This document shows positions 1,318-13,778 of a stretch of 64,000 nt of DNA, in pieces. Where the stretch lies: NCBI GenBank assembly GCA_046293175.1, contig JBKBPM010000001.1, positions 102,891 to 166,890 of the forward strand, read 5' to 3'. Positions within the stretch are counted from its first letter, which is position 1. Every line of letters begins with the position of its first letter. The stretch is from Minisyncoccia bacterium (lineage in GTDB: Bacteria > Patescibacteriota > Minisyncoccia > Phycocordibacterales > UBA918). Position numbers and translations under genes: made by a program. The notes beneath the pieces were generated by a model. That model was not told the origin of the DNA. It was given only the letters and a program-made list of their open reading frames with translations, and did not search any database.

Positions 1318-2367
1318 TTAGTCGACAATCGCTACAGCAGTCTCAAACGAGTTGTTGTTACGGTTACTATCTGGAGTAACAGATACTTCGACGTTATAGC
1401 GCTTGGCGCCCGTATCATCTCCCATTGTAAAGCCGAGAGTGATAGTTGCTCGTTCGTTTGGTTTGAGGGCCGCCTGACTTGGTGAAGTATAGGTCTCACC
1501 ATTTGGAAGTTTAGCGGTATAGGTCCAAGTGCTTGAGGTCTTGGTACCAATGTTCTTCACCTCAAACTTGATAGCGCCAGTTTCGTCGTTGTCGATGATT
1601 CCAGTAGCCTTAAAGGTCTCTTGAACGAGGATACCACTACCCACAAAGGCAACCGAGAGATCAGTAAAGCCATTTGGATTTGAGGCTGGGATACTGTAGA
1701 CCGGCTTTTGGGTATACACTGGCTTGGTTGGGATTGCTGGCTGAGTCGGCTTAGCCGGAGTGGCAGGTTTGGCCGGTTCAGCTGGCTTTTCCGTCAGGAC
1801 TGGTGGAGTAGTAGTGGCAGGGGATGAAGTAGCTACCGGTGTACCGGCCGTACCAATCGTAGCGTTAACAATCGTGATTGAGTTATCGTCGGTCATGAGT
1901 GGCGCCTCTTTACCTGAAGGGATAAAGTCGATGCGGTAGTTGAGGTCGGTAAAGCGATTCTTTTCAGAGGTAGCGACAATATCAATGGCACTCACACTTC
2001 CGATATTGTAGTTGGTGTCACAGGAGAGCGACTTGATAGCCCCGAGACTGTCTCGCATATCAACGGCTAGACCTTCACTACACGCGTATGAAAAGGCGAA
2101 GGTACCGGTACGCTTTGGTACATTCCAACTGATAGTGACCGATTCACCATCACTGACCGTTCCCTTGGTACTTGTGGTCTCAAGACCACGGGTATCGTAG
2201 CTATAGACACTGTCGGCGAGGGAAGCGAGCGACGTGAAGGCGCTTGGTAATACCTTCACGAGTTGGATACCTAACCACGCAATTACAATAATCAGGCCAA
2301 TAAAACCCACAATAGCAAGCGACTTAATGATTCCGTCTTTCTGCTGCTGTTCACGATTGTTTGTCAT
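1318..2367 (-). CDS. Hypothetical membrane-anchored (type II) surface protein with a Pro/Thr/Lys-rich linker
   Basis: 349 aa. N-terminal transmembrane helix (IIKSLAIVGFIGLIIVIAWLGIQLV). Central linker TPPVLTEKPAEPAKPATPAKPTQPAIPTKP. No recognisable catalytic motif. Confidence 0.55.
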   Translation of the reverse strand: MTNNREQQQKDGIIKSLAIVGFIGLIIVIAWLGIQLVKVLPSAFTSLASLADSVYSYDTRGLETTSTKGTVSDGESVTISWNVPKRTGTFAFSYACSEGLAVDMRDSLGAIKSLSCDTNYNIGSVSAIDIVATSEKNRFTDLNYRIDFIPSGKEAPLMTDDNSITIVNATIGTAGTPVATSSPATTTPPVLTEKPAEPAKPATPAKPTQPAIPTKPVYTQKPVYSIPASNPNGFTDLSVAFVGSGILVQETFKATGIIDNDETGAIKFEVKNIGTKTSSTWTYTAKLPNGETYTSPSQAALKPNERATITLGFTMGDDTGAKRYNVEVSVTPDSNRNNNSFETAVAIVD

Positions 2368-2456
2368 AATGTGGTCATATTACCATATAATAATGCAAAA
2401 GTCAATAAAACGAAAGTTACAAATTGTCAACCTAAGCACAAATGAAATTCAACATC

Positions 2457-2481
2457 TTCCCTAGGCCTTGCCTAGGGAAGA
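2457..2481. repeat. Palindromic repeat element (CTTCCCTAGG-ccttg-CCTAGGGAAG), one member of a family
   Basis: 10-bp perfect inverted repeat. The same core CCCTAGG/CAAGG/CCTAGGG recurs at 9925-9975 and 27437-27467. Confidence 0.5.
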
Positions 2482-2556
2482 TGCTACACGATGCAAAGGG
2501 GCACCCTAGGCAATAGTCGAAGACCGGTCCCGGGAGAGGATTTCTAACGGGGTTAA

Positions 2557-2590
2557 TTGACAAATTAATATTTTATGATACTATATGACC
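2557..2590 (+). promoter_or_regulatory. Sigma70-like promoter upstream of the sortase gene
   Basis: TTGACAAAT at 2557, about 16-17 nt spacer, extended -10 TGaTACTAT; ATG at 2595. Confidence 0.4.
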
Positions 2591-2594
2591 ATCT

Positions 2595-3248
2595 ATGCAC
2601 GACGAATCTTCATTTTTTGATGCCTTGTGGGTTAAAAAAGTACCATTTTTGGTAGTCTTTTTTGTGATTTTTACTCTCACGTACGGTGTCCTTTTTGCGG
2701 TTGATTTCTTGCCAGAACCAAAAACCAGTGCCCCAGTTAAAGCTGTGGCAACTTCTACTTTTGCCACCACAACCAAAGAAGTAGAGGAGGTGTCTCCGGC
2801 AGCTATGGCCGAAGAGCCGGTGCAGCTCTCGATTCCGTCACTTGATCGGGTAGTGTCTGTCCTTAATCCTGAAACCCGCGATATTGTTGAGCTTGACCGC
2901 GAACTCCTCAAGGGTGTGGTACGTCACCCTGACTCAGCCCTTCTTGGTGAAGAGGGGAATGTGGTTATTTTGGGTCATTCAAGCTACCTGCCAAACGTGA
3001 TGAACAAGAACTTCCAGGCCCTCAATGGTATCCAAAAGATGAAATGGGGCGATATTATCACGCTCCAAAGTGATGGTACCGAATATACCTATCGGGTAGA
3101 AAAGGTCTATCAGGCCAAGGCCTCGGGAGTCACTATCCCAACTGAGGTAACAGGGAAGCGTCTGACGCTCGTGACCTGTAACAGTTTTGGTGCCAAGGAA
3201 GACCGGTTTATCGTTGAAGCGAAGCTCCTCTCTGAAAAAGCCCTCTAA
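2595..3248 (+). CDS. Sortase (transpeptidase, class A/E-like)
   Basis: 217 aa. N-terminal TM anchor. Catalytic His in VVILGHSSY and the TLxTC catalytic Cys motif (RLTLVTCNS). Confidence 0.8.
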   Translation: MHDESSFFDALWVKKVPFLVVFFVIFTLTYGVLFAVDFLPEPKTSAPVKAVATSTFATTTKEVEEVSPAAMAEEPVQLSIPSLDRVVSVLNPETRDIVELDRELLKGVVRHPDSALLGEEGNVVILGHSSYLPNVMNKNFQALNGIQKMKWGDIITLQSDGTEYTYRVEKVYQAKASGVTIPTEVTGKRLTLVTCNSFGAKEDRFIVEAKLLSEKAL

Positions 3249-3280
3249 TCCAGGGCTTTTTGCTGCCTTTTTAATACATT

Positions 3281-3330
3281 TGACAGAATCTCTAATGTAT
3301 TGACAAATACATTAGAGTGTGATAGTATAT
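3281..3330 (+). promoter_or_regulatory. Promoter whose -35 box is embedded in an 11-bp inverted repeat; candidate operator
   Basis: CTCTAATGTAT-TGACAA-ATACATTAGAG is a perfect IR centred on the TTGACA -35. TGtGATAGTAT -10-like follows 17 nt later. A related TTTGACA-N-TTGACAAATAC arrangement repeats at 3661-3714. Confidence 0.35.
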
Positions 3331-3384
3331 ACCCATAACCAGCAACCGCGGATATGATTCCGCAGCATGACAAAGGAGACCTCC

Positions 3385-3606
3385 ATGCAAAAGTTCCTTC
3401 TTCTGGCCGTTTTGGCTACGTCACTCGGCGGCTGTGTCGGTGGTTCCGGTGTTCCGGGCACCGGTGGCGGCGGTGGCTACTCCGGCGGGGAAACCCAGGC
3501 CGAAAGCCAGGCCAAGTCCGGTGAAACCAAACCGGGCGAAACCCAGGGTCCCGAAGGGACCATGGACGACGGCTCGGGGGCAGGCTTCGGACCGATCAGC
3601 GGCTAA
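3385..3606 (+). CDS. Small glycine-rich lipoprotein, in a GC-rich island
   Basis: RBS aggag at 3374-3378, then ATG at 3385. Signal peptide MQKFLLLAVLATSLGGC with lipobox L-G-G-C. Gly-rich body (GTGGGGGYSGGETQ). Local GC is about 65-68% against a backbone of about 47%. Confidence 0.5.
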   Translation: MQKFLLLAVLATSLGGCVGGSGVPGTGGGGGYSGGETQAESQAKSGETKPGETQGPEGTMDDGSGAGFGPISG

Positions 3607-3797
3607 GGCCGCGCAAGGGGTGGGAAGGGGCAAATTTACATGCCCTGACCCACCTTTTTCTATATTTGACATTCTGCTGGTTATGTTGACAAATACCGGC
3701 GGATATGATAAGATACTTGAGTGAACAGAACCTTTGCTCTTTGACGAAATTACTGTCAGAGCGAACCCAACGCGGTGTTACCGCAAGGAGACTCCAA

Positions 3798-4289
3798 ATG
3801 GACCGTCGCAACTTTCTTCTTAGCATGGGTGCTGCCGGTCTGGTGAGCACATTGCCGGACATGGCTGCTGCATGCCCAGCGAAAAAGGCAACCAACTGCG
3901 TCCTCGTGCCGGCGCCGAATCATCGGACTCTCGGAACGCTTGAGCAGGAGCTTGAGCATTGGGCATGGCTCTGCCATCCCGATTATGCCAAACTCAAGCA
4001 ACCTCGCTGGTGGTCGTACGTGATGGTCACCGACAAGAGCTATCCGGCAGCAGTTCAGAGGGTTCTCAACAATCCGAAGGCTCCGCTCCCGGATGAAGTC
4101 GAGGTGCATGGGCAAGAGTGCCGTCAGCAGTGGTTCAAACCGGGCTGGCGCGCTCTCACGGTCACCAACTGTCGTCGTGAAGACCGGCGTTGGACCTTCT
4201 TGCTCTCTCGGCGGTTGACTGCAAAAGATCAAGGTCAGCCGCTCAAGAAAGCGGACTGGCAAGATCTTGAACCGGTCTTCGACATCTGA
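3798..4289 (+). CDS. Secreted cysteine-rich protein with a twin-arginine (Tat)-type signal, in a GC-rich island
   Basis: RBS aaggag at 3785-3790, then ATG at 3798. MDRRNFLLSMGAAGLVSTLPDMAAA is a Tat-like RRxFL signal. 163 aa with 6 Cys. GC about 58%. Confidence 0.5.
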   Translation: MDRRNFLLSMGAAGLVSTLPDMAAACPAKKATNCVLVPAPNHRTLGTLEQELEHWAWLCHPDYAKLKQPRWWSYVMVTDKSYPAAVQRVLNNPKAPLPDEVEVHGQECRQQWFKPGWRALTVTNCRREDRRWTFLLSRRLTAKDQGQPLKKADWQDLEPVFDI

Positions 4290-4393
4290 CAGCTGCCGGG
4301 GCTTCGAAAGTAGTCCCGGCAACAAATCTTTGAATCAACTTGGATTCAGAGTAATCGTCTTTAGAGACGATTGCTTTAATCCGAAGAAATTCG

Positions 4394-6484
4394 GTGTTGG
4401 TAAATAAATTTAAAATTATGTTTAGCATTATAAATATCAAAAATATTTTCATTGCAGGTCTCTTTTTGACCGTGATGTTTTTTGCTACCCTTGCAACTGC
4501 TCCACAAGCTTTCGCGCTCGGAACAAGTGGTTGTGATGGTTGTGGTGGCAGTGGTAGTACTGGTGGCAGTAACGATGGTGGTAATGATACTCCACAGACT
4601 CCTACCTGTTCGCTTGAGCTTAATAAGCTCGAAGTAACCGCTATTGGTGAGACCTACCGACTTACGTGGTCAGGCGGTCCGGCTTCAGCTCAGTTCTACA
4701 TCAATGGTGCTGCAGTAGCCGACTCAGGCGCTGCGAACTTCACCTTTACTGGTCCAAACTATGACCGTTTTAAGATGGTCGGTAACAATGGAGGTGTGAC
4801 CTGTGAAAAGGAAGTGCGTATTATTAAGAAAGTCCAGGAAGTGCCAAAGTGTGAATCGTTTACCGCTTCACCGGCGACTCTTCCAGCTGGCGGTGGCAAT
4901 GTGACCCTTACTTGGGATACCACGAATGCTACCAACGCTTCAATTGATAACGGTGTTGGCACAGTAGCTGGCGACGGTAGTACTGTCATCAACAATGTGA
5001 CCTCAAACCGTACCTTTACCCTCACGCTCTCAAACGCGGTAGGAAGTGCAAGTTGTCAGGCTTCGGTGACGGTTACCCCAGTGGTACACGCTCCAATCTG
5101 TGACTTCATTACCGCTAGTCCAGTAACCATCACTCGTGGCCAGTCAAGTACTCTCTCATGGGGAACTACGAATGCTACTAGTGCCTTCATCAACAATGGT
5201 ATTGGTACGGTTGCAGTTGATGGTTCAACTTCAGTGTCACCACTTGAAACTACTACCTACACCCTCACCGCTACTGGTGCTGAGAACAAGACAGTATCTT
5301 GTTCAAAGACTATCGTGGTTGATCAGCCAGAAGTGAAGACTCCACGTTGTGAATACTTCAACGCATCTGCTACTACCATTAAGCGTGGCGACAATGTAAC
5401 TCTTACATGGGATACAACAAACGCAAATAGTGCAGTCATCAACCCAGGTGTTGGCTCAGTCGCTGCTGATGGTTCAACCACCGTTTCTCCATCTGAAACG
5501 ACTACCTACACCCTCACCATCACTGGTGACAACAACCAGACTTCATCATGTACTCGTACCGTGAATGTCGAAAGTGGTAGTAACGGCGGAGGTGGCGGTG
5601 GATCATCTTCACCAAAGTGTACCCTCAAGATTTCAGACACTAAGATTACTCGTGGCGATCGTATCACCCTGAAGTGGGATACCTCACGCGCTACTGAAGT
5701 AACGCTTAAGGATAGTCACGGCAAGACCCTTGTTACCACTGATGGTAAGAAGTCATCTGATAAGAAGGATCTCTACGACGGTGAAATCACCCTTCGTCCA
5801 GAAAAGGATACTACCTACACCTTGATGGCTGAACGTGGTTCAAAGGATCGAACCTGTAAGGTGTCAGTAGATGTGAAGGATGGTGTAACGGTTATCACTG
5901 ACCGTGATCAGAAGCCGGTCGTAACTGGTATCTCTCTTACACAGGTTCCATACACTGGTTTTGAAGCTGGTCCATTCCTCACGATGCTTTTCTACGGACT
6001 CTTGCTCCTCTGGGCTCTCTACCTCGCGTATGTACTCGTGGTACGCAAGAACGGTGGCGCAGGTGCCCTTGCTATAGCGACACCTACTCCTACTCCGGTA
6101 GCTCCAGTTGCTCCGGTAGCAGTAAGTACTATGAGTACTCCACGATTCGTGGCTCCAGTTGCAGAAGCTGTAGCTGCACCAGTAGTTGGGTACGCAGCAG
6201 CGACCTCTACTACTGATGCCGCCTACGAAGCGATCGCTGAGAAGGTAGAAGATGCAGCACACGCGCAACACGTCCTTATCTCAAGTGAAGCCATGCGTCA
6301 CTTTATCGGTGCCACGAGTGAAGAAACTCGTACCGAGACATTGACCGCAGTCCTCGCTAAGGCTAAGGCATCATATCCGGCGGAAGATGGTTGGGTAGTT
6401 CTCAACATCGACCGTATGAAGAGTGTGATGGCAGCGATGGCACCAGCCGTCTCAGTCTTCACTCCTCGTTCTGTAGCTGCGTAA
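4394..6484 (+). CDS. Large surface protein with five tandem Ig-like repeats of about 90 aa, a sortase-like VPYTGF motif, a TM segment and a 170-aa C-terminal domain
   Basis: Signal peptide. Repeats follow the pattern C-x-F-ASP-TL-GG-VTLTWDTTNAT-I-NGVGTVA-DGST-TTTYTLT...C. VPYTGF (5945-5962) is followed by a hydrophobic stretch and RKNGG, then an Ala/Pro/Val-rich tail. Confidence 0.75.
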   Translation: MLVNKFKIMFSIINIKNIFIAGLFLTVMFFATLATAPQAFALGTSGCDGCGGSGSTGGSNDGGNDTPQTPTCSLELNKLEVTAIGETYRLTWSGGPASAQFYINGAAVADSGAANFTFTGPNYDRFKMVGNNGGVTCEKEVRIIKKVQEVPKCESFTASPATLPAGGGNVTLTWDTTNATNASIDNGVGTVAGDGSTVINNVTSNRTFTLTLSNAVGSASCQASVTVTPVVHAPICDFITASPVTITRGQSSTLSWGTTNATSAFINNGIGTVAVDGSTSVSPLETTTYTLTATGAENKTVSCSKTIVVDQPEVKTPRCEYFNASATTIKRGDNVTLTWDTTNANSAVINPGVGSVAADGSTTVSPSETTTYTLTITGDNNQTSSCTRTVNVESGSNGGGGGGSSSPKCTLKISDTKITRGDRITLKWDTSRATEVTLKDSHGKTLVTTDGKKSSDKKDLYDGEITLRPEKDTTYTLMAERGSKDRTCKVSVDVKDGVTVITDRDQKPVVTGISLTQVPYTGFEAGPFLTMLFYGLLLLWALYLAYVLVVRKNGGAGALAIATPTPTPVAPVAPVAVSTMSTPRFVAPVAEAVAAPVVGYAAATSTTDAAYEAIAEKVEDAAHAQHVLISSEAMRHFIGATSEETRTETLTAVLAKAKASYPAEDGWVVLNIDRMKSVMAAMAPAVSVFTPRSVAA

Positions 6485-6594
6485 GCCTGACTGAAGAAGA
6501 AACATCAAAAACCGCCCGTATGGGCGGTTTTTGTTTTCCTGAAGTCGCTATCAAAAACAGCGTTTCGAAAGATCAGACACGGTATACTAAAGGG

Positions 6595-7803
6595 GTGAAA
6601 ACTTGGCCGGCATTTTTCGTACTCATATTGGTGGGCATTGGCTTTTTGGCAGTGTCCGTACCGGTTTATGCAGCAGTGTCTTGTGACAGCTTTACAGTGA
6701 CTCCAACCAGTGCTTTGCCCGGTGACTTTGTCACCCTTGATTGGACGACTACCGGTGCCACAGATGTCACGATTGATGCCATTGGAGCAGTCGCTACAAC
6801 AGGAAGTACCATTTTTGAGGTACCAAATAGTCCAGGAACGTTTACTTTTTCTATGGAAGTTTCCGGTGGAAGTATCTTTGAGCCAGAAACTGCATTTTGT
6901 TCGACCGATCTCACTATCAACAGTCTACCAGTTTGTGATGTATTTACCGCTACCCCGGACACCCTCACTGAGCCGGGTGAGGTGACGCTGACCTGGGATA
7001 CTGCATCCGCGACTACTTCAGTGACCATTGATAATGGGATAGGTGTCGTAGCGGAAGATGATTCAGTAGTGGTTAGTGTGGCTGGTGACACCACGTATAC
7101 GCTCACTGCCGTTAATGCGTTTGGAAGCACGCAGTGTACCGCATCGGTGACCTTTGCCGCGACAGATGTAGGTAGTCTGAGTAGCGGCGGGGGAGGCAAG
7201 AGTATCAATCCTCGCTGTGACCTTACAATCGATACTGCGAGTGTGATGGCTGGAGACACGGCACTTATTTCGTACGAAGCGGTAAACGCTACCAACCTTA
7301 TGCTGATTGAATCAACCGCTGGTGGATCAAAAACATTATTTAGTACTACTACGTCCCTCGGTGAACAAACGGGAACTTGGCCAGTCACCGTTTTGGCGGA
7401 TACGACATATACGCTCAAAGTTACAAGACCTCATCGCTCAAGTGAATGTACTGCCGTTGTAGCACTGGCAGACCTCAGCGGCCTTGGTTTGGGCGAAATG
7501 CAAGGTGCGTCTTCACTTGCACTCCGGAATCTACCGGATACGGGATTTTATCCAACTACCGGCTTTATAGTGATTATGAATGTGGTTCTCGTAGCGGCAG
7601 CGGCTTTTGTGGCGTATGTGATCGTAGTATTTGGACAGTTGGCACGGCGGGCAAAGACGGTACCGATACGAGATCGTCTATTTACCCCACAGACAGTTCT
7701 GTACCTGACTGAACGCACCACCCTCCAAACCAAATTATTATTGTGGCGCATTATTGCAGTGACTATCATCTTACTTTTGATAATCTGGTACGCATTTCGA
7801 TAG
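6595..7803 (+). CDS. Surface protein with three Ig-like repeats and a C-terminal LPDTG sorting signal; a sortase substrate
   Basis: Likely GTG start at 6595 after aaagggg; an alternative ATG at 6520 lies inside the upstream terminator hairpin. Signal peptide. Repeats are paralogous to the 4394 gene. LPDTGF (7531-7548) is followed by a TM segment and RRAK, then a second hydrophobic segment. Confidence 0.7.
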   Translation: MKTWPAFFVLILVGIGFLAVSVPVYAAVSCDSFTVTPTSALPGDFVTLDWTTTGATDVTIDAIGAVATTGSTIFEVPNSPGTFTFSMEVSGGSIFEPETAFCSTDLTINSLPVCDVFTATPDTLTEPGEVTLTWDTASATTSVTIDNGIGVVAEDDSVVVSVAGDTTYTLTAVNAFGSTQCTASVTFAATDVGSLSSGGGGKSINPRCDLTIDTASVMAGDTALISYEAVNATNLMLIESTAGGSKTLFSTTTSLGEQTGTWPVTVLADTTYTLKVTRPHRSSECTAVVALADLSGLGLGEMQGASSLALRNLPDTGFYPTTGFIVIMNVVLVAAAAFVAYVIVVFGQLARRAKTVPIRDRLFTPQTVLYLTERTTLQTKLLLWRIIAVTIILLLIIWYAFR

Positions 7804-7811
7804 AAACAAAA

Positions 7812-7845
7812 CCAGCGGCCTCAAGGCCGCCGGTTTTGATTTATA
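7812..7845. terminator. Bidirectional terminator hairpin
   Basis: aaaaccagcggcctcaaggccgccggtttt lies between the convergent surface protein gene and thrS. Confidence 0.6.
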
Positions 7846-7855
7846 GACGTCTCTC

Positions 7856-9622
7856 TTATGAGAGTGCGCGAGTATCGCGTTCGTGGGTGAGCTGCTTCAC
7901 AAGGTCATCAATCGTGAGTACCTCCTTGGTGCCATCACGTTTTTCAAGTGTGACCGTGTGACTATTCATTTCTTGGTCACCAAGGACGATGAAGTAGGGA
8001 AGTCGGTCGGTCTTTGCTTGGCGAATCTTCTTACCCATAGATTCGTTTTCTGCATCAAGGGTGGCGCGTAGACCTGCTATCTTGAGTGTTTGGAGCACAT
8101 CCTCAGCATAGGCGATATGCACTGCATTAACAGGGATGATACGCACCTGTTCAGGAGCGAGCCAGAGGGGGAAGTTGCCACCAAGGTGCTCAATGAGGAC
8201 GGCGAGGAAACGTTCGAGTGATCCAGCAATTGCGGCGTGAATCATCACAATTGGCTCCTTCTCACCCTTTTCATTCGTGCAGGTGAGGCCGAAGCGGACC
8301 GGCATGAGACGGTCGAGTTGGATGGTTGCAACCTGGTGGGTGCGACCAATTGAGTCCTTGGCCATGAAGTCGAGTTTCGGTGCATAAAAGGCCGCTTCAC
8401 CAACGCCTTCGAAGTAATCAGCCTCACGGTCTTGTGCAATTTGCTTCATGAGACTCTCGGTCTCTTCCCAGACGGCACTATCGCCAAGATACTTTTCTTT
8501 GTTCTTTGGGTCGTGGAAGGAGAGACGGACACGGAGTTTGAAGTTAAAGGCACCGTAGAACTCACTAATGATGTCCCAGATTTTTTCAATCTCTTCACGA
8601 AGCTGCGACTCACGGCAAAATACGTGTGCATCATCCTGAGTGATTGAGAGTACACGAGTGAGGCCGGTAAGCTCACCTGATTGTTCGGCGCGGTAGACCA
8701 TAGTGGTCTCGGCGTAGCGCTGCGGGAGGTCACGGTACGAACGGGGTACAGCATCATAAATCTGCGTGTGATGCGGACAGTTCATCGGCTTGAGCACATA
8801 CATCTCATGATCATCACCTTCCTTTGCCATAACCTTAAAGAGGTCCTCACTGTATTTGTTCCAGTGACCGGAGGTTTCGTAGAGAGACTTCTTGGCAATA
8901 TGTGGAATTGTCACGTGCTCATAACCACGAGCGTCACGGAGTTCTTGCACAAAAGCATCAAGCCGCTGCCGCAAGGCGGTACCCTTAGGCGACCAAAGCG
9001 GCAGTCCCACCCCGACGAGATCAGAGAATGAAAAGAGCCCCATCTCCTTACCAAGCTTCCGATGATCGCGCTTCTTCGCTTCCTCAAGTTGGGTCAGGTA
9101 AGCGTCAAGCTCGGCAGCTGAATCGAACGCAAGACCATAGACACGGGTCAACATCGGATTTTTTTCGTCACCACGCCAGTAGGCCCCGGCGACTTTGTCT
9201 AGTTTGAAACTATCCGCGTCAATTTCAGCTGAAGGGTTCTCCGAGTGGCCACCGCGACAGAGGTCGGTAAATTCACTCTTACCAGTACCACAGGTGTAGA
9301 GGGTGATGGTTTCGCCACGAGCAGCGATTTCTTCGATCAGTTCGAGCTTAAACCGATTGCCGGCAAAAATTTCACGAGCTTCTTCGACTGACACCTCGCG
9401 ATGGCTCCAAGCGGTCCAAGTATTGAGGAGCTTCTTCATAGCCTTCTGAATCTCCTTTAAGCCATCGTCACCAAGGGCCGGACCGTCACTAAAATCAACG
9501 TCGTAATAGAAGCCAGTGTCGATGGCCGGGCCAAGGGTGAGCTTGGCGTGGGGGTAGGCGTCGATGATGGCTTTGGCCATTAGGTGCGCCAGCGTATGTC
9601 TCTTATGATCTAAGTTACTCAT
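7856..9622 (-). CDS. thrS: Threonine--tRNA ligase lacking the N-terminal TGS domain; it starts at the N2 editing domain
   Basis: 589 aa from MSNLDHKRHTLAHLMAKAI. Class II aaRS motifs present (RDHRKLGKEMGLFSF, KPMNCPHHTQIY, FYAPKLDFMAKDSIGR). The ORF-track extension up to 9799 runs through a terminator hairpin and was rejected. Confidence 0.9.
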   Translation of the reverse strand: MSNLDHKRHTLAHLMAKAIIDAYPHAKLTLGPAIDTGFYYDVDFSDGPALGDDGLKEIQKAMKKLLNTWTAWSHREVSVEEAREIFAGNRFKLELIEEIAARGETITLYTCGTGKSEFTDLCRGGHSENPSAEIDADSFKLDKVAGAYWRGDEKNPMLTRVYGLAFDSAAELDAYLTQLEEAKKRDHRKLGKEMGLFSFSDLVGVGLPLWSPKGTALRQRLDAFVQELRDARGYEHVTIPHIAKKSLYETSGHWNKYSEDLFKVMAKEGDDHEMYVLKPMNCPHHTQIYDAVPRSYRDLPQRYAETTMVYRAEQSGELTGLTRVLSITQDDAHVFCRESQLREEIEKIWDIISEFYGAFNFKLRVRLSFHDPKNKEKYLGDSAVWEETESLMKQIAQDREADYFEGVGEAAFYAPKLDFMAKDSIGRTHQVATIQLDRLMPVRFGLTCTNEKGEKEPIVMIHAAIAGSLERFLAVLIEHLGGNFPLWLAPEQVRIIPVNAVHIAYAEDVLQTLKIAGLRATLDAENESMGKKIRQAKTDRLPYFIVLGDQEMNSHTVTLEKRDGTKEVLTIDDLVKQLTHERDTRALS

Positions 9623-10052
9623 ATCTATGGGCGGCAGCCAGGGTGAGCGTCTCGCTGTGTTGCGGAGCCTCATTGTCGAACTCATCGTATTGCAATACGT
9701 CTCGTTCGCCAATTTCTCCGCGCTTGCGATACATCTCACCGCAACTGCCGAATTGGTTACTGTATTAATAATTAAACGAAAAATCGCCCGAGCGAACATA
9801 TGACAGGATTCATATGTTCGCTCGGGCGTTCTTTTGGTAAAGTCGCGGTTCCACCGAGCTTTAGTAAGGGGTCAGACCCCTTACTTTCTTTTAGTACAGA
9901 TTAGGGAGAGGTTTCTCCACGTCTCCCTAGGCAAGGCCTCGGGACGTGTCCCGAGGCCTTGCCTAGGGAGACGTGACGTTGGTGGTTGGTAGCCACCACA
10001 ATCTCTGTGTTAGGTATCATCCTAGCGGATAGGGAGAAATTGGTCAACCATA
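9623..10052 (-). promoter_or_regulatory. Candidate T-box riboswitch leader of thrS: promoter, short stem I, antiterminator/terminator
   Basis: Minus-strand promoter TTGACC-17-TAGGAT (10047-10019). AGAGA box, then a hairpin whose loop reads cuACCAa (Thr codon ACC followed by A). T-box-like sequence AAAGCUCGGUGGAACCGCG with the canonical 7-nt bulge UGGAACC. Helix A1 (GCUCGG/CCGAGC) and helix A2 (GCG/CGC) compete with a 19-bp terminator hairpin (9785-9828) that is followed by a U tract. About 160 nt then run to the ATG. Confidence 0.6.
9925..9975. repeat. Long palindromic repeat element: 24-bp stem, an extended member of the CCCTAGGCAAGGCC family
   Basis: tctccctaggcaaggcctcgggac-gtg-tcccgaggccttgcctagggaga is a perfect inverted repeat. 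Confidence 0.55.
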
Positions 10053-10520: not shown

Positions 10521-13500
10521 CTATGATTTAGATTCTGTGGATGCGATTGGGATGAGTGCCTTCACCCGATCAATGGCAATACTGGGTTCGTCGTTACGAA
10601 TGGTGAGCTTGCCCTTAATGGCCACACATTGGCCGGGGACAAAGAGCTCTTTTTGCTCTGTGTACGTAGATGGGAAGGCGACCATCTCAATCGTATCGTG
10701 TTGATCGCCAAGGACGACAAACGCCATCTTGTCACCTTTCTTGGTGATGAGTTCACGGACACTCACGATCATACCGGTGGTGACTAATTCGCCCTTGAGG
10801 CGGACAATAGTGATTTCTTCATTGTTGCGAACAGCGTTCAGAATCGTACCGATACGCGGTCGCTTGACCACTTCAGCTTCGTAGTCGTCAAGCGGGTGGC
10901 CAGAGACGTAGATTCCCAACAAGTCTTTCTCCCAAATGAGTTTTTCAGCCTTGCTCGCCGCGGGGGCGGGTAGGAGGGTGAGATTGGAGACACTATTACC
11001 ACCGAGGCCAAAGAGGGAATCTTGAGCGCTTTCGGCGTTGGCCACTTGCTCGCGGTTAAAGGACAGCATGAGGTCGACATTGGCGAGCAGATGTCCGCGT
11101 TCGTCCATACTATCAAACGCACCGACCATGATCAGGGCTTCAAGAGATTTTTTATTAAGATTGCGGTTCTTGACTCGGGTAAGAAAGTCTTGGAGAGACG
11201 CGAAGCGTCCGTTCTGCTTACGTTCTTCGATAATCGCTTCACTGATACCCTCACCAAAGTTCTTAATAGTTGTCAGTCCAAACCGAATCGTCTGTTTACC
11301 GGGTACTACTGAGAAGTCGGCAAAGGATTCATTGATATCAGGAGGTAATACCTCGATACCCATACGCTCACATTCATGAATGATTTCGGAGATTTTATCC
11401 GTATCGCCAGAATCGGCCGTGAGGACGGCAGACATGTATTCGACCGGATAGTTCGCCTTCATGTAGGCGGTTTGGTAGGCCACGCGACCATAAGAAGCAG
11501 CGTGTGCTTTGTTAAATCCATATGCGGCAAATGGTTCGATCAGGTGCCAGAGTTTTTCGGCCGTAGTAGGGGAGAGCTTACCGTACTCGAGGAAGCCTTT
11601 CATGAGCTTGTCTTTTTCGGCAGCCATGACCTCGGGAATCTTTTTACCCATCGCCTTACGAAGCATATCTGCTTCAAGCCAGCTGTAGCCGGCGAGCTCG
11701 CGTGCGACAGACATGACGTCGTCTTGGTAGGTAATCACCCCGTAACTTCGTTCGAGGATATTCTTAAGGCGGGGGTCGAGATAGGTGACGAGAGCCGGAT
11801 TATGTTTACGCTCAATGTAGGTTGGGATCATTTCCATTGGGCCAGGGCGGTAGAGAGCCACCATCGCATTGATATCGTGGATGGTGGTGGGGCGGAGTTG
11901 TTTCAAAAATGCGGTCATGCCCGAACCGTTGAGCTGGAAGAGCCCCATCGTCTGACCACTGGCGAGCACTGCAAAGGTTTTCGGATCATCGAGTGGAATG
12001 GCTTCAATATCAATTGCTACACCATGAATCTTTTTTACTCGTTTGACCGCATCGGCCAAAATGGCGAGGTTTTTGATACCCAAAAAGTCGAATTTGAGAA
12101 GTCCCACACCGTCTTCACCGACCGATTTCATTTCGTACTGGGTCACATACTTACCAGTCTTCGGGTCGGGTTGGATTGGTACAAATTGATTGAGAGGTGC
12201 AGGCGCAATTACCACACCGGCGGCGTGTACCCCGAGGTGGCGGACGCGCCCTTCGATCTTTTGGGCGAGGTCAATGACCTCACGCGCTTCAGCGTTGGTT
12301 TTGTATAACTTTTGGAGGTCAGGTTCGATTTCAAGTGCCTTCTTGATGGTCATGGGGAAGCCCTGACTACCCATTGGAATGAGCTTCGCTATGGTGTCCC
12401 CAACACTGTAGGGATGCCCAAGCGCTCGCGCCACGTCGCGTACAGCCGCTCGCGCCATCATCGTCCCGAAGGTGCCAATTTGCGCTACTTTATCTTCACC
12501 GTACTTACTCTTCGCGTATTCAATAATCTCATCACGCCGATTATCGGCGTAGTCCATATCGATATCAGGAGCCGATGGTCGCTCGGGGTTGAGGAATCGT
12601 TCAAAGGGAAGTTGGTATTCAAGGGGGTCTACGTTTGTAATTCCGAGTACATAGGTCGTAAGTGATCCTGCCACCGAACCTCGAATGGTGGTGAGAATAC
12701 CGCGTTCGCGCGCTTCGCGGAGGAGGTCTCCTACCACGAGGAAGTACTTAGCATAGCCTTTGTGCTTGATGACCTCCAGTTCGTAATCAAGACGCTCTTT
12801 CACCTCTGTTTGTTTGGTCAAATCAAAACCACGCCAGGTCGCTCCGCGGTACGCCATGTCCTGCAGTTCTTCGTCTGGTGCTTTGCCACTCTCGATTTGG
12901 TAGTCAGGGAAGTACCAGTGAGTACCAATCTCGAGTTCGACCGTACATTGTTCTGCAATTTTAACGGTGTTTAGAACAGCATCTGGAGTCCCCTTGAAAC
13001 GTTCGATCATATCGGCCTGAGTCAAGAACGAAAAGTCTTCTTCACCTTGACCATCGCCTGAGGTGTCAACGACGCCACCGCTTTGAATTTTGACCATAAT
13101 CTCGCGCGCGATGCGGTCCTCAGGATGGATGTAGTAGACATCGTGTGCGGCGACGAGTGGCGTGTTGGTCGTGCGAGCGAGGGTTATCAATTTGTTTTGC
13201 CATTTCTCATGCTCCACAATTTCGGGATGATGGGTAATTTCGAGGTAGCAGTCTTCACCAAAGACACTCTTGTACCAATCGAGTCGCTCCGCTGCCTTCT
13301 CATCATTTTCGTTTTTGAATTGTTGCACCACTTCGCCAGCAAAGGAGGGGATGATACAGATAAGATCCTTCGCGTAAGTGCGAATCAGCTCTTCGTCGAT
13401 GCGGGCCTTGTAATAAAATCCTTCGAGGTTCGAGAGCGTGACGAGCTTGATGAGGTTTTGGTAGCCCGCAAATGTTTTAGCAAGGAGAACGAGGCGTGAG

Positions 13501-13778
13501 CGTGGCTTATCGATCATAGCTTCTTTATTGTGGCGAGTGCGGGGAGCTAAGTAGGCATCAAGACCAATAATGGGTTTGATGCCTTCTTTGGTACAGGCTT
13601 TATAAAAATCGATAGCACCGTAGAGAGCACCAGCGTCTGTGATAGCAAGCGCATCTTGCCCATCCTCTTTGGCGGCTTTAGCCAGTTCCTTAGGGGTTGG
13701 GAGGGCATTAAGGAGAGAGTAGTGCGAGTGCACATGGAGATGGACGAACTGGGCAGACAGGGGTTTCGGGTCAGACAT
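10521..13778 (-). CDS. dnaE: DNA polymerase III alpha subunit
   Basis: 1085 aa. PHP domain (HLHVHSHYSLLNA), polymerase core (GLLKFDFLGIKNL, YQDDVM) and a C-terminal OB fold. Confidence 0.95.
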   Translation of the reverse strand: MSDPKPLSAQFVHLHVHSHYSLLNALPTPKELAKAAKEDGQDALAITDAGALYGAIDFYKACTKEGIKPIIGLDAYLAPRTRHNKEAMIDKPRSRLVLLAKTFAGYQNLIKLVTLSNLEGFYYKARIDEELIRTYAKDLICIIPSFAGEVVQQFKNENDEKAAERLDWYKSVFGEDCYLEITHHPEIVEHEKWQNKLITLARTTNTPLVAAHDVYYIHPEDRIAREIMVKIQSGGVVDTSGDGQGEEDFSFLTQADMIERFKGTPDAVLNTVKIAEQCTVELEIGTHWYFPDYQIESGKAPDEELQDMAYRGATWRGFDLTKQTEVKERLDYELEVIKHKGYAKYFLVVGDLLREARERGILTTIRGSVAGSLTTYVLGITNVDPLEYQLPFERFLNPERPSAPDIDMDYADNRRDEIIEYAKSKYGEDKVAQIGTFGTMMARAAVRDVARALGHPYSVGDTIAKLIPMGSQGFPMTIKKALEIEPDLQKLYKTNAEAREVIDLAQKIEGRVRHLGVHAAGVVIAPAPLNQFVPIQPDPKTGKYVTQYEMKSVGEDGVGLLKFDFLGIKNLAILADAVKRVKKIHGVAIDIEAIPLDDPKTFAVLASGQTMGLFQLNGSGMTAFLKQLRPTTIHDINAMVALYRPGPMEMIPTYIERKHNPALVTYLDPRLKNILERSYGVITYQDDVMSVARELAGYSWLEADMLRKAMGKKIPEVMAAEKDKLMKGFLEYGKLSPTTAEKLWHLIEPFAAYGFNKAHAASYGRVAYQTAYMKANYPVEYMSAVLTADSGDTDKISEIIHECERMGIEVLPPDINESFADFSVVPGKQTIRFGLTTIKNFGEGISEAIIEERKQNGRFASLQDFLTRVKNRNLNKKSLEALIMVGAFDSMDERGHLLANVDLMLSFNREQVANAESAQDSLFGLGGNSVSNLTLLPAPAASKAEKLIWEKDLLGIYVSGHPLDDYEAEVVKRPRIGTILNAVRNNEEITIVRLKGELVTTGMIVSVRELITKKGDKMAFVVLGDQHDTIEMVAFPSTYTEQKELFVPGQCVAIKGKLTIRNDEPSIAIDRVKALIPIASTESKS

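What the first reader, a model, noticed from the sequence alone, without database searches (positions are those of the whole stretch)
1318..7803. Sortase-centred surface locus: sortase plus two multi-Ig-repeat proteins with [LV]PxTGF sorting signals
The locus runs membrane-anchored surface protein, sortase (TLVTC motif), then two paralogous secreted proteins. Those two are built from five and three tandem Ig-like repeats of about 90 aa, each framed by two Cys (repeat consensus C-x-F-ASP-TL-GG-VTLTWDTTNAT-I-NGVG-VA-DGST-TTTYTLT-C). Both end in a sortase-like signal: VPYTGF or LPDTGF, then a hydrophobic helix, then basic residues. The first substrate is atypical. After its TM helix it carries about 170 more residues (Ala/Pro/Val-rich, then a folded domain), so sortase cleavage would leave a separate membrane-anchored cytoplasmic fragment. 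In a reduced-genome organism, sortase-displayed Ig-repeat proteins are prime candidates for host- or substrate-attachment adhesins.
Basis: partly seen in the sequence, partly recalled or inferred. Interest (0 to 1): 0.7.

Follow-up and report, generated by a model that had tools for sequence, protein, structure and literature searches.

The report
Dedicated sortase with tail-bearing Ig-repeat substrate
In this ultra-small (Paceibacteria/CPR) bacterium a sortase enzyme sits next to two surface proteins that carry its recognition motif. The main one also has a conserved folded domain on the cytoplasmic side of its membrane anchor, which ordinary sortase substrates lack.

Summary
2595-3248 encodes a true sortase (Pfam E=6.8e-21; catalytic His/Cys/Arg conserved). 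S1 (4394/4418-6484) and S2 are secreted proteins built from Cys-framed Ig-like repeats (AF2 pLDDT 96). Each carries [LV]PxTGF, then a TM helix, then basic residues.

Corrections:
- The S1 tail is 145 aa.
- S2 most likely starts at GTG 6595. A terminator hairpin at 6506-6533 follows S1.
- S2 also has a post-helix extension with a second TM helix.
- Two small secreted ORFs lie between the sortase and S1, in a GC-rich island.

The window comes from a Candidatus Paceibacteria MAG. The order gyrB / protein A(-) / sortase / S1 / thrS / dnaE recurs in other species. All 69 species-level loci with enough upstream sequence have the sortase upstream of S1. S2 is a rare add-on.

S1 defines an unannotated family (998 clusters at 50% identity). 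Its motif-plus-helix segment is its most conserved part. The tail holds an AAA+-lid-like domain, and most relatives add a second domain.

A sub-clade splits the gene at a conserved A9 tract. The 0 frame then ends in a canonical short tail (KKKVS*), and the tail domains continue in the -1 frame.

Best reading: a dedicated sortase/substrate module of the cell envelope, whose cleavage would leave a conserved membrane-tethered cytoplasmic stub. The adhesin role is untested.

The parts
1318..2367 (-). Protein A: 349 aa, N-terminal TM anchor, a Cys-pair domain, a Pro/Thr/Ala-rich linker and a C-terminal CARDB/NEW3-like beta-sandwich. It is transcribed divergently from the sortase.
   Evidence: tblastn finds it in 62 of 80 related loci; in the loci listed it lies on the opposite strand just upstream of the sortase. 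Conserved features: LASLA after the helix, the Cys pair, KN.GTKTS and LKPNE.
2557..2584 (+). Promoter-like site (TTGACA-16-TACTAT with an upstream TG), 11 nt before the sortase start.
   Evidence: This is a consensus match only.
2595..3248 (+). Sortase: 217 aa with an N-terminal TM anchor. Catalytic His is in ILGHSS, Cys in TLVTC and Arg in DRFIVEAK.
   Evidence: PF04203, 74.7 bits, E=6.8e-21. Best PDB hits are 4d70 ('sortase family protein') and 2kw8 and 2ln7 ('LPXTG-site transpeptidase family protein'). H, C and R are >=95% conserved in 70 sequences. No NCBIfam class model reaches its cutoff. The NCBI name is 'sortase domain-containing protein'.
3235..3261 (+). Terminator-like hairpin overlapping the sortase stop codon.
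3367..3606 (+). Small lipoprotein-like ORF (79 aa, LGGC lipobox-like, Gly-rich) inside the GC-rich island.
   Evidence: (LPAM_1, weak). Positional analogues occur in L002 and L004. L001's gene call starts it later (73 aa).
3798..4289 (+). 163-aa ORF with a twin-arginine-like signal (MDRRNFLLSMGAAG) inside the GC-rich island.
   Evidence: TAT_signal E=0.009; gene call in L001. Twin-arginine-signal analogues sit at the same position in L002 and L088.
4394..6484 (+). S1, the main putative sortase substrate. The ORF runs from GTG 4394; ATG 4418 gives the 688-aa NCBI product ACK4SL_00465.
4418..4516 (+). S1 signal peptide (MFSIINIKNIFIAGLFLTVMFFATLATAPQAFA).
   Evidence: Hydrophobic core followed by an AxA-type site.
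4607..5857 (+). Five Cys-framed Ig-like repeats of S1: 4607-4804, 4850-5056, 5099-5302, 5348-5551, 5618-5857.
5945..5962 (+). VPYTGF, an LPXTG-type motif. The predicted sortase cleavage is between T and G.
   Evidence: In the unbiased HMMER hits P, T and G are invariant, position 1 is V/I/L/T and x is Y/H/Q/E.
5966..6046 (+). S1 TM helix (AGPFLTMLFYGLLLLWALYLAYVLVV) ending in R, followed by K. Together with the motif it is the most conserved segment of the family.
6047..6202 (+). Ala/Pro/Val/Thr-rich cytoplasmic linker, predicted disordered.
   Evidence: (pLDDT 53-65).
6203..6445 (+). Compact cytoplasmic tail domain (S1 residues ~604-684) with an alpha/beta AAA+-lid-like fold.
6506..6533 (+). 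Strong terminator-like hairpin (12-bp stem, 7 GC pairs, T-run) after S1. It contains the ATG at 6520.
6595..7803 (+). S2, the accessory putative substrate (402 aa from GTG 6595). It has a signal peptide and three Cys-framed repeats (6682-6900, 6934-7137, 7216-7449).
7531..7566 (+). LPDTGF-YPTTGF, a doubled LPXTG-type motif in S2.
   Evidence: In orthologs the motif reads [LV]P[DEAQV]TG[FL].
7567..7800 (+). S2 C-terminal membrane hairpin: TM1, a basic loop (RRAKTVPIRDRLFTPQ...), then TM2 at the extreme C-terminus.
   Evidence: The same architecture occurs in the L004 S2-like protein.
7807..7838 (.). Hairpin (14-bp stem called on the minus strand, shorter stem on the plus strand) between convergent S2 and thrS; likely a bidirectional terminator.

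Best explanation
This is a dedicated sortase/substrate module of the Paceibacteria cell envelope.

Shown:
- The sortase is membrane-anchored and has an intact catalytic triad.
- S1 has a Sec-type signal peptide, disulfide-framed Ig-like repeats, a [VIL]PxTG-F motif directly before a single TM helix, basic residues, and a cytoplasmic tail with a folded domain.
- The sortase and S1 are syntenic across species.

Inferred:
- S1 is exported and held in the membrane by its C-terminal helix.
- The sortase cleaves between T and G of VPYTGF. It transfers the Ig-repeat ectodomain to an amine nucleophile, most likely a peptidoglycan precursor, so the ectodomain becomes wall-linked.
- The fragment GFEAGP-helix-linker-domain stays in the membrane as a conserved cytoplasmic stub.
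- The tail either holds or positions the precursor for processing, or acts after cleavage as a read-out of surface assembly.
- S2 is a lineage-specific paralog processed the same way. Its cleavage would leave a two-helix hairpin.
- Protein A, with its conserved TM segment, is probably a partner of the same machinery.
For: 1. Sortase identity and active site.
2. The motif has the LPXTG logic in two paralog families. P, T and G are fixed, position 1 is hydrophobic and x varies: S2 has D/E/A/Q/V, S1 has Y/H/Q/E.
3. In S2 the motif is kept although the S1-type helix residues (FY..LL..W) are not.
4. Only these two sites exist in the 64 kb.
5. Sortase lies upstream of S1 on the same strand in all 69 loci that have at least about 1.3 kb upstream. 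In most of them sortase identity to the window is only 41-54%. L003, L004 and L007 show the same order.
6. In four divergent assemblies the 0-frame product ends ...VPYTGF-helix-KKKV[SF]*. That is a textbook tripartite sorting signal.
7. Topology fits: N-terminal signal peptide, RK/RR after the helix, nearly invariant Cys pairs in the repeats. Meheust et al. 2019 report a sortase family in more than half of CPR genomes and thiol-disulfide oxidoreductase/VKOR families in CPR (PMC6744442).
8. There is precedent that the C-terminal remnant left by sortase cleavage can itself be functional (S. gordonii C-peptide, as summarised in PMC11502775).
Against: - No biochemical evidence of cleavage or wall linkage exists.
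- The signal is not at the extreme C-terminus. S1 has a 145-aa tail and S2 has a second helix. The curated LPXTG-anchor models are absent from the hit lists at E<=1.
- The motif-plus-helix segment is much more conserved (median 68% identity) than the ectodomain (44%) or the tail domain (47%). A simple sorting signal does not explain that.
- One Kaiserbacteria locus (L002) has S1 without an adjacent sortase.
- Loci were retrieved with the pattern [VL]PYTGF[EDA]AG, so invariance of those nine residues is by construction.
- The nucleophile and the cell-wall chemistry of these organisms are unknown.
Confidence: 0.55

Rival explanations
1. S1 is a permanent, uncleaved single-pass membrane protein: Ig-repeat ectodomain, conserved helix, cytoplasmic domains. 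VPYTGFEAGP-helix would then be a juxtamembrane/transmembrane interaction module. It could assemble with protein A and the sortase's own anchor, or transmit a signal from the surface to the cytoplasm. The sortase would act on other proteins, or only on S2.
For: - The motif-plus-helix is the most conserved part of the protein. Invariant residues G-6, I-5, L-3, T+12, F+15, Y+16, L+19, W+22 and Y+28 all lie outside the search pattern.
- In S1 even x (Y) and the +1 to +4 residues (F[ED]AG) are nearly fixed.
- Conserved folded cytoplasmic domains make most sense if they stay attached to the ectodomain.
- The sortase and A also have conserved TM segments.
Against: - The sortase is adjacent in 69 of 69 informative loci.
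- S2 keeps the same motif while the rest of its helix has diverged.
- The A9 clade makes a 0-frame product with a canonical short sorting tail.
- P, T and G are exactly the residues that never vary.
Confidence: 0.2
2. The sortase is a protein-protein ligase here. It would join S1 through its VPYT carboxyl to a lysine or N-terminal amine of another envelope protein (S1 itself, S2 or protein A). The result would be a covalent fibre or surface lattice, pilus-like or S-layer-like, whose base stays membrane-anchored through uncleaved tail-bearing copies.
For: - Tandem Ig-like domains plus a sortase is the design of Gram-positive pili (established knowledge).
- Protein A is a conserved, N-terminally anchored partner encoded next to the sortase.
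- In the A9 clade most product would be short-tailed and a minority tail-bearing. That suits a base/shaft stoichiometry (inference).
Against: - The sortase scores no better against the class C (pilin-polymerising) model than against classes D and E. All are far below cutoff.
- It has only an N-terminal anchor.
- I did not search for a pilin-type Lys motif or an isopeptide-forming CnaA/CnaB domain. The repeats are disulfide-framed I-set/PKD-like.
- Most loci have S1 as the only motif-bearing gene.
Confidence: 0.12
3. One reading: an ordinary sortase-displayed adhesin locus for attachment to a host cell or substrate. The C-terminal extensions would be incidental.
For: - Ig-like repeat surface proteins are often adhesins, and CPR bacteria are thought to live attached to hosts (general knowledge; PMC5220378, notes many CPR surface proteins with sortase motifs).
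- The distal repeat number varies widely among orthologs, from 1 to 11 detected repeats.
Against: - The tail is not incidental. It is conserved over 998 clusters at 50% identity and folds confidently.
- The locus sits in fixed housekeeping synteny with one copy per locus.
- No binding domain or ligand evidence was found.
Confidence: 0.1

Closest known systems
Housekeeping sortase with the LPXTG cell-wall sorting signal (e.g. S. aureus SrtA and protein A)
   Same: Membrane-anchored Cys transpeptidase with His/Cys/Arg. The substrate has an N-terminal signal peptide, a hydrophobic-P-x-T-G motif, a hydrophobic helix and basic residues.
   Different: - The motif is [VIL]PxTG with a fixed aromatic +1 residue.
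- The helix is sequence-conserved.
- S1 continues for 145 aa (up to about 285 aa in relatives) with folded cytoplasmic domains, and S2 has a second helix.
- The curated anchor HMMs do not match.
- The enzyme fits none of the NCBIfam class models A-F/GN.
Dedicated single-target sortase systems (class GN 'marine' sortase TIGR03784 with its adjacent target protein; class B and class D with cognate substrates)
   Same: One sortase encoded next to one cognate substrate, with a family-specific motif variant and conserved adjacency. The dedicated-pair concept itself is recalled from memory, not tested here.
   Different: The phylum (Patescibacteria), the sequence family (32 bits to TIGR03784 against a cutoff of 158) and the substrate type (Ig-repeat protein with a cytoplasmic tail) all differ.
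C-peptide signalling after sortase cleavage (S. gordonii adhesin remnants sensed by a histidine kinase)
   Same: The membrane-embedded remnant left after LPXTG cleavage has a function of its own (PMC11502775).
   Different: There the remnant is only the helix plus a few residues. Here it would carry one or two conserved folded cytoplasmic domains. No kinase or other partner has been identified.
Class D/E sortases (best-scoring NCBIfam models); 4d70 'sortase family protein' (best PDB hit)
   Same: These are the best HMM and PDB matches. The alignment covers the His, Cys and Arg motifs.
   Different: Scores of 42-44 bits against cutoffs of 140-165. Class D and E recognise LPxTA and LAxTG (from memory), not [VIL]PxTGF.
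Two-product genes made by -1 frameshifting or transcriptional slippage on A-runs (dnaX tau/gamma, IS-element orfAB)
   Same: The sub-clade relatives (L006, L007, L090, L091) have a conserved A9 (A_AAA_AAG or A_AAA_AAA) with a 0-frame stop two codons later. The conserved tail continues in the -1 frame. Slippage on runs of this length is documented (PMC1088944, PMC5009743).
   Different: Not present in the window's S1 (longest A-run there is <=5). No expression data exist. The feature decides whether a surface protein carries a cytoplasmic domain.
AAA+ lid-type small helical domains (Pol epsilon subunit B N-terminal domain 2v6z, PCP_red 2kru, Lon/RuvB lids)
   Different: Sequence identity is 10-15%. 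There is no ATPase core and no sequence-level match to PDB or Pfam. This is a resemblance of fold only.

Membership tests
Sortase (PF04203, Cys transpeptidase) | Match to the sortase domain model above the curated cutoff | tested here: met
   74.7 bits against a cutoff of 26.6, E=6.8e-21, covering residues 78-211.
Sortase (PF04203, Cys transpeptidase) | Catalytic His, Cys (TLxTC) and Arg present and conserved | tested here: met
   GHSS, TLVTC and DR..VEA align to 4d70. Each is >=95% conserved in 70 sequences.
Sortase (PF04203, Cys transpeptidase) | Membrane anchor that places the catalytic domain outside the cell | tested here: met
   One N-terminal hydrophobic helix at residues ~7-40, preceded by the charged MHDESS.. 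segment. The topology itself is inferred.
Sortase classes A-F / GN (NCBIfam) | Score above the class-specific curated cutoff | tested here: not met
   Best scores are SrtD 43.7 (cutoff 140), class E 42.2 (160), class D 41.8 (165), class C 31.4 (160), class GN 32.1 (158) and class F 17.9 (166). The general TIGR01076 model scores 39.3 against a cutoff of 39.35.
LPXTG-type cell-wall sorting signal | Hydrophobic-P-x-T-G pentapeptide conserved in orthologs | tested here: met
   S1 family: VPYTGF 77, IPYTGF 9, LPYTGF 3, TPYTGF 2, [VI]PHTGF 4, LPQTGF 1, IPETGF 1, from a search with no word index. S2 family: [LV]P[DEAQV]TG[FL].
LPXTG-type cell-wall sorting signal | Hydrophobic helix directly after the motif, then basic residues | tested here: met
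   S1 helix at 525-551 followed by RK. S2 helix followed by RRAK. R/K at +33/+34 in 78 and 67 of 84 orthologs.
LPXTG-type cell-wall sorting signal | The signal lies at the extreme C-terminus, with only a short charged tail after the helix | tested here: not met
   S1 has 145 aa after the helix, and relatives have 120-285 aa. S2 has a loop plus a second helix. The feature is met only by the 0-frame product of the A9 clade, which ends KKKVS*.
LPXTG-type cell-wall sorting signal | Match to the curated anchor models (PF00746 Gram_pos_anchor; TIGR01167) | tested here: not met
   Neither model appears among the hits for S1 or S2 at E<=1.
LPXTG-type cell-wall sorting signal | Cleavage between T and G, and amide linkage to peptidoglycan | not testable with these tools
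   Needs biochemistry or mass spectrometry.
Ig-like (I-set/PKD-type) beta-sandwich repeats | Beta-sandwich fold of one repeat | tested here: met
   AF2 pLDDT 96.4 with 8 strands. Foldseek finds titin/obscurin Ig, ColG PKD and SoxYZ with TM 0.64-0.72. The repeat profile hits titin Ig at E=0.0023. Homologs carry PF07679 and PF24528.
Sortase-assembled pilus (class C sortase plus pilins) | Class C sortase; pilin Lys motif; CnaA/CnaB isopeptide domains | tested here: inconclusive
   The class C model scores 31.4 against a cutoff of 160. The repeats are disulfide-framed I-set/PKD-like. I did not search specifically for a pilin Lys motif.
AAA+ ATPase (lid domain) | P-loop ATPase core preceding the lid | tested here: not met
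   The tail has only a disordered linker before the domain. There is no Pfam or PDB sequence match. The fold resemblance is limited to the lid.

The most novel reading that the evidence does not exclude
Sortase cleavage would be used here as a maturation step that splits one precursor into two working parts. One is a wall-linked Ig-repeat ectodomain. The other is a conserved, membrane-tethered cytoplasmic module (an AAA+-lid-like domain, plus a second domain in most relatives). That module would report or organise surface assembly from the inside, which would make it a folded-domain version of C-peptide signalling. The conserved helix would serve as the docking site for the sortase, protein A or both. 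One sub-clade would tune the ratio of tail-less to tail-bearing precursor by -1 frameshifting or transcriptional slippage on a conserved A9 tract.
Probability: 0.22. Interest if true: 0.8.

Novelty: new variant of a known kind. Interest (0 to 1): 0.6.

Why it matters
The cell envelope of Patescibacteria (CPR) is poorly understood, as PMC5220378 notes for CPR in general.

- **A conserved envelope module.** This locus is syntenic in at least 69 species-level genomes, and the S1 family spans about 1,000 clusters at 50% identity. Its main protein is annotated only as 'hypothetical'.
- **A testable pairing.** It offers a concrete enzyme-substrate pair: a defined peptide and a 217-aa sortase.
- **An extension of the sortase paradigm.** If the pair is confirmed, it would be a substrate whose post-cleavage remnant carries conserved folded cytoplasmic domains. 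That opens a possible route by which these small cells couple surface assembly to the cytoplasm.
- **A candidate recoding event.** The A9 site in relatives would be a new case of recoding that controls protein architecture.
- **The ordinary case.** If S1 is merely a classical wall-anchored protein, the result is still a useful annotation of a large uncharacterised family and of an unclassified sortase clade.

Tried and rejected
1. **Curated models.** Pfam and NCBIfam scans of S1, S2, protein A and the small ORFs found no anchor, adhesin or tail-domain family. There were only weak beta-sandwich hits.
2. **Literature.** 'VPYTGF' gave 0 papers. CPR/Parcubacteria plus sortase gave only general statements that CPR encode sortases.
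3. **Tail as a stand-alone protein.** About 24 of the 150 best HMMER hits are tail-only ORFs. I rejected this as a general idea. Of those examined, L088 is a 100-N scaffold gap and L089 has an in-frame stop in a 1.2-kb contig. Three others (L006, L090, L091) are downstream ORFs of the A9 frameshift, and L007, reached from P0120, shows the same A9 split. In L007 the tail frame has no ATG upstream of the domains.
4. **S2 start.** I rejected TTG 6391 and ATG 6520. ATG 6520 lies inside the terminator hairpin at 6506-6533.
5. **PDB by sequence.** A profile of the tail found nothing (OSCP at E=0.32).
6. **afdb50 fold search.** Not available on the machine.
7. **S2 as a core part of the module.** Rejected. 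A second motif-bearing gene occurs in only 2 of the 80 retrieved loci, and S2 has only 11 close orthologs.
8. **Small ORFs as a conserved family.** By tblastn they match only 1-2 of 80 loci. Analogues exist by position and signal type only.
9. **tRNA scan.** None in the window.
10. **Rest of the window.** The ten large ORFs scanned are housekeeping or metabolic: SMC, RNase R, rpoB/C, dnaG, rpoD, an AddA-like helicase, a Na/H exchanger, GH57 and GH15.

Full report
**Source and layout.** S1, S2 and the sortase of the window are identical to proteins of a Candidatus Paceibacteria MAG: ACK4SL_00465, ACK4SL_00470 and 'sortase domain-containing protein', on a 676-kb contig. The window is about 48% GC. 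Away from the locus it encodes housekeeping genes: gyrB, thrS, dnaE, SMC, RNase R, rpoB/C, dnaG and rpoD.

Gene order in the region:
- gyrB 3' end (121-1122, +)
- protein A (1318-2367, -)
- sortase (2595-3248, +)
- a lipoprotein-like ORF (3367-3606, +)
- a twin-arginine-like secreted ORF (3798-4289, +)
- S1 (4394/4418-6484, +)
- S2 (6595-7803, +)
- thrS (7856-9799, -)
- dnaE (10521-13778, -)

**Checking the observation.** The sortase matches PF04203 at 74.7 bits (E=6.8e-21). It aligns to the solved sortase-family chain 4d70 through the His (ILGHSS), Cys (TLVTC) and Arg (DRFIVEAK) motifs. It has one N-terminal hydrophobic helix.

S1 has a signal peptide ending AFA and five Cys-framed repeats. 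VPYTGF sits at residues 518-523, a helix at 525-551, then RK and 145 further residues. S2 has three Cys-framed repeats and LPDTGF-YPTTGF, then a helix, RRAK, a basic loop and a second helix that ends the protein.

The repeats are related. The central ones are 46-58% identical. The first repeat of S1 and the membrane-proximal repeats of both proteins are divergent. A profile built from them finds 1,022 copies in 222 homologs, with the two Cys nearly invariant.

One repeat, modelled with a 50-sequence alignment, gives an 8-strand beta-sandwich at pLDDT 96.4. Its best structural matches are titin/obscurin Ig, PKD and SoxYZ domains, with TM about 0.65-0.72. 'Ig-like' is therefore correct.

A six-frame scan of the whole window finds the motif-plus-helix combination only at these two sites.

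- The S1 tail is 145 aa, not about 170.
- S2 cannot start at 6391. A 12-bp-stem terminator hairpin at 6506-6533 follows the S1 stop and includes the ATG at 6520. GTG 6595, the NCBI start, is the first start after it.
- S2 also has an atypical C-terminus.
- Two small secreted ORFs in a GC-rich island (0.59 against about 0.48) were overlooked.

**Comparative evidence for a sortase-S1 pairing.** S1 has more than 2,750 word-index homologs. In 119 of the top 120, a near-invariant GI[SA]LTQVPYTGFEAGP-helix-RR is followed by a tail of either about 120-150 or about 240-285 residues.

An exhaustive HMMER search used a profile of motif, helix and tail. It finds 998 cluster representatives (50% identity level) at E<=1e-3, and 275 at E<=1e-30. 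Because this search uses no word index, its motif spectrum is unbiased:
- VPYTGF 77
- IPYTGF 9
- LPYTGF 3
- TPYTGF 2
- [VI]PHTGF 4
- LPQTGF 1
- IPETGF 1

P, T and G never change, position 1 is hydrophobic or Thr, and x varies a little. S2 orthologs read [LV]P[DEAQV]TG[FL]. This is the logic of an LPXTG signal.

A scan of one genome per species found 147 genomes with a confirmed relative. Nearly all are labelled Paceibacteria, Parcubacteria, Kaiserbacteria, Nomurabacteria or Patescibacteria. One submitter's series is labelled Saccharibacteria, and a few look mis-binned.

In the 80 loci retrieved, tblastn finds the sortase in 69. The other 11 are all cut off within about 1.3 kb upstream of the S1 ORF. 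So 69 of 69 informative loci carry the sortase upstream on the same strand. In the loci listed, protein A lies on the opposite strand, gyrB further upstream, and thrS and dnaE downstream. This holds although sortase identity to the window is mostly 41-54%.

Independent look-ups give the same order. One Kaiserbacteria locus has S1 without an adjacent sortase. The catalytic His, Cys and Arg are >=95% conserved in the 70 sequences compared.

S2-like second substrates occur in only 2 of the 80 retrieved loci, and S2 has 11 close orthologs. The core module is therefore A + sortase + S1.

**What does not fit an ordinary sorting signal.**
- The signal is not C-terminal.
- The motif-plus-helix segment is the most conserved part of S1. 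Median identity to the window is 68%, against 44% for the ectodomain and 47% for the tail domain.
- Residues outside the retrieval pattern (G-6, I-5, L-3, T+12, F+15, Y+16, L+19, W+22, Y+28) are invariant or nearly so in 84 genomes.
- The tail is real. With a 27-sequence alignment, AF2 predicts the helix, a disordered Ala/Pro/Val linker and a compact alpha/beta domain (S1 ~604-684) at pLDDT 94-98.
- There is no Pfam, NCBIfam or PDB sequence match.
- Most relatives add a second, about 110-residue helical domain (GSLAEAIVTGN...RPM.ALADAA.DLD...ALT.ALDGTYTDE..AVKMAI.KA). The window's S1 lacks it.
- The curated LPXTG-anchor models do not hit S1 or S2. The sortase reaches no NCBIfam class cutoff.

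**A recoding site in relatives.** Some tail-only ORFs from the HMMER search begin MGTLHR..KK.FLGF. Their contigs show why. Four assemblies come from four samples (L006, L007, L090, L091), and three of their tail proteins are representatives of different 50%-identity clusters.

In all four, the codons after the helix are an exact A9 run. The 0 frame then ends KKKV[SF]* two codons later, and both tail domains continue intact in the -1 frame. L007 is a 125-kb contig with the full gyrB-A-sortase-S1-thrS-dnaE synteny. Its tail frame has no upstream ATG.

The sequence reads A_AAA_AAG or A_AAA_AAA. Slippage-prone runs of this kind are discussed in PMC1088944 and PMC5009743. Among 90 loci, 82 have runs of <=4 at this place. 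The window's own run is at most 5.

I infer, without expression data, that this clade makes two products. One is a short form with a textbook sorting signal. The other is a longer, tail-bearing form made by -1 frameshifting or by insertion of one A during transcription.

This supports two points. The C-terminus is a sortase signal, and the tail is a separable, dosage-controlled module. Two other tail-only ORFs were artefacts: a 100-N gap and an in-frame stop in a short contig.

**Mechanism.** The best-supported model is a dedicated sortase/substrate pair.
1. S1 is exported.
2. Its disulfide-framed Ig-like repeats fold outside the cell.
3. The helix holds S1 next to the membrane-anchored sortase.
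4. The sortase cleaves VPYT|GF and transfers the ectodomain to a wall precursor.
5. The conserved helix-plus-tail stub remains in the membrane.

The sequence features and the synteny are shown. Cleavage, the acceptor and any role of the stub are inferred.

The unusual conservation of the helix suggests intramembrane contacts among the three proteins, because the TM segments of the sortase and protein A are also conserved. A functional remnant has a precedent in streptococcal C-peptide signalling (PMC11502775).

Rivals are listed separately with refutation tests: S1 as an uncleaved receptor-like protein, sortase-mediated protein-protein ligation into a fibre or lattice, and a plain adhesin.

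**Comparison and novelty.** That CPR bacteria often encode sortases, and surface proteins with sortase motifs, is known (PMC6744442; PMC5220378). The public record already names this sortase as a sortase. The literature I could search does not mention any of the following:
- the S1 family
- its fixed pairing and synteny with the sortase
- its conserved helix and cytoplasmic domains
- the A9 site

I class it as a new variant of a known kind. It works like a sortase/LPXTG system but fails the 'extreme C-terminal tripartite signal' criterion, and the enzyme falls outside the curated classes.

**Limits.**
- The locus set was retrieved with the motif itself.
- Record titles, not a phylogeny, give the taxonomy.
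- I could not survey whole genomes for other sortases or substrates.
- All functional statements about cleavage, wall linkage, adhesion and the tail are untested.

Noticed in passing
L006 ~666-674; L007 ~11605-11613; L090 and L091 (related loci, not the window): There is a conserved A9 tract immediately after the S1 TM helix in four divergent assemblies. The 0 frame ends KKKV[SF]*, and the two cytoplasmic tail domains continue intact in the -1 frame. This is a likely programmed -1 frameshift or transcriptional slippage that decides whether the surface protein carries its cytoplasmic tail. L023 has an in-frame A9 at the same place.
   Followed up: partly
window 3301-4200: This is a GC-rich island (0.59 against about 0.48 in the flanks). 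It holds a Gly-rich lipoprotein-like ORF (3367-3606) and a 163-aa ORF with a twin-arginine-like signal (3798-4289), each preceded by a TTGACA-type promoter-like site. Secreted ORFs of the same signal types sit at this position in L002, L004 and L088. They have almost no sequence similarity to the window's ORFs (tblastn hits in 1-2 of 80 loci).
   Followed up: partly
window 6506-6533: A strong hairpin terminator lies directly after S1. Its loop and 3' arm contain the ATG (6520) that would otherwise look like the S2 start. The database ortholog P0247 begins with the same 'MGGFCFP' residues as the ATG-6520 reading, so it may be mis-started in the same way.
   Followed up: yes
window 1318-2367 (-): Protein A is as tightly syntenic with the sortase as S1 is (62 of 80 loci). 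It has a conserved TM/juxtamembrane segment (W...P.A..SLASLA) and a conserved C-terminal beta-sandwich (KN.GTKTS...LKPNE). No family assignment passes a cutoff, and its role in the module is unknown.
   Followed up: partly
L007 1654-5064: The gyrB gene of this related Paceibacteria contig is 1,136 aa long and carries an intein (a PF14890 Intein_splicing hit). The window's gyrB is cut by the window edge, so it could not be compared.
   Followed up: no
relatives of S1 (e.g. P0068, P0016; alignment A1 columns ~200-300): Most S1 relatives have a second conserved cytoplasmic domain of about 110 aa (GSLAEAIVTGN...RPMxALADAAxDLD...ALTxALDGTYTDExxAVKMAIxKA). It has no Pfam or PDB sequence match. The window's S1 belongs to the minority short-tail class that lacks it.
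   Followed up: partly
L044, L036, L080 (record titles): Three contigs with the full Paceibacteria-type synteny are deposited in MAGs labelled Patiriisocius, Acidimicrobiales and Azotimanducaceae. This is probably binning contamination. Many others are labelled 'uncultured Candidatus Saccharibacteria' by one submitter.
   Followed up: no
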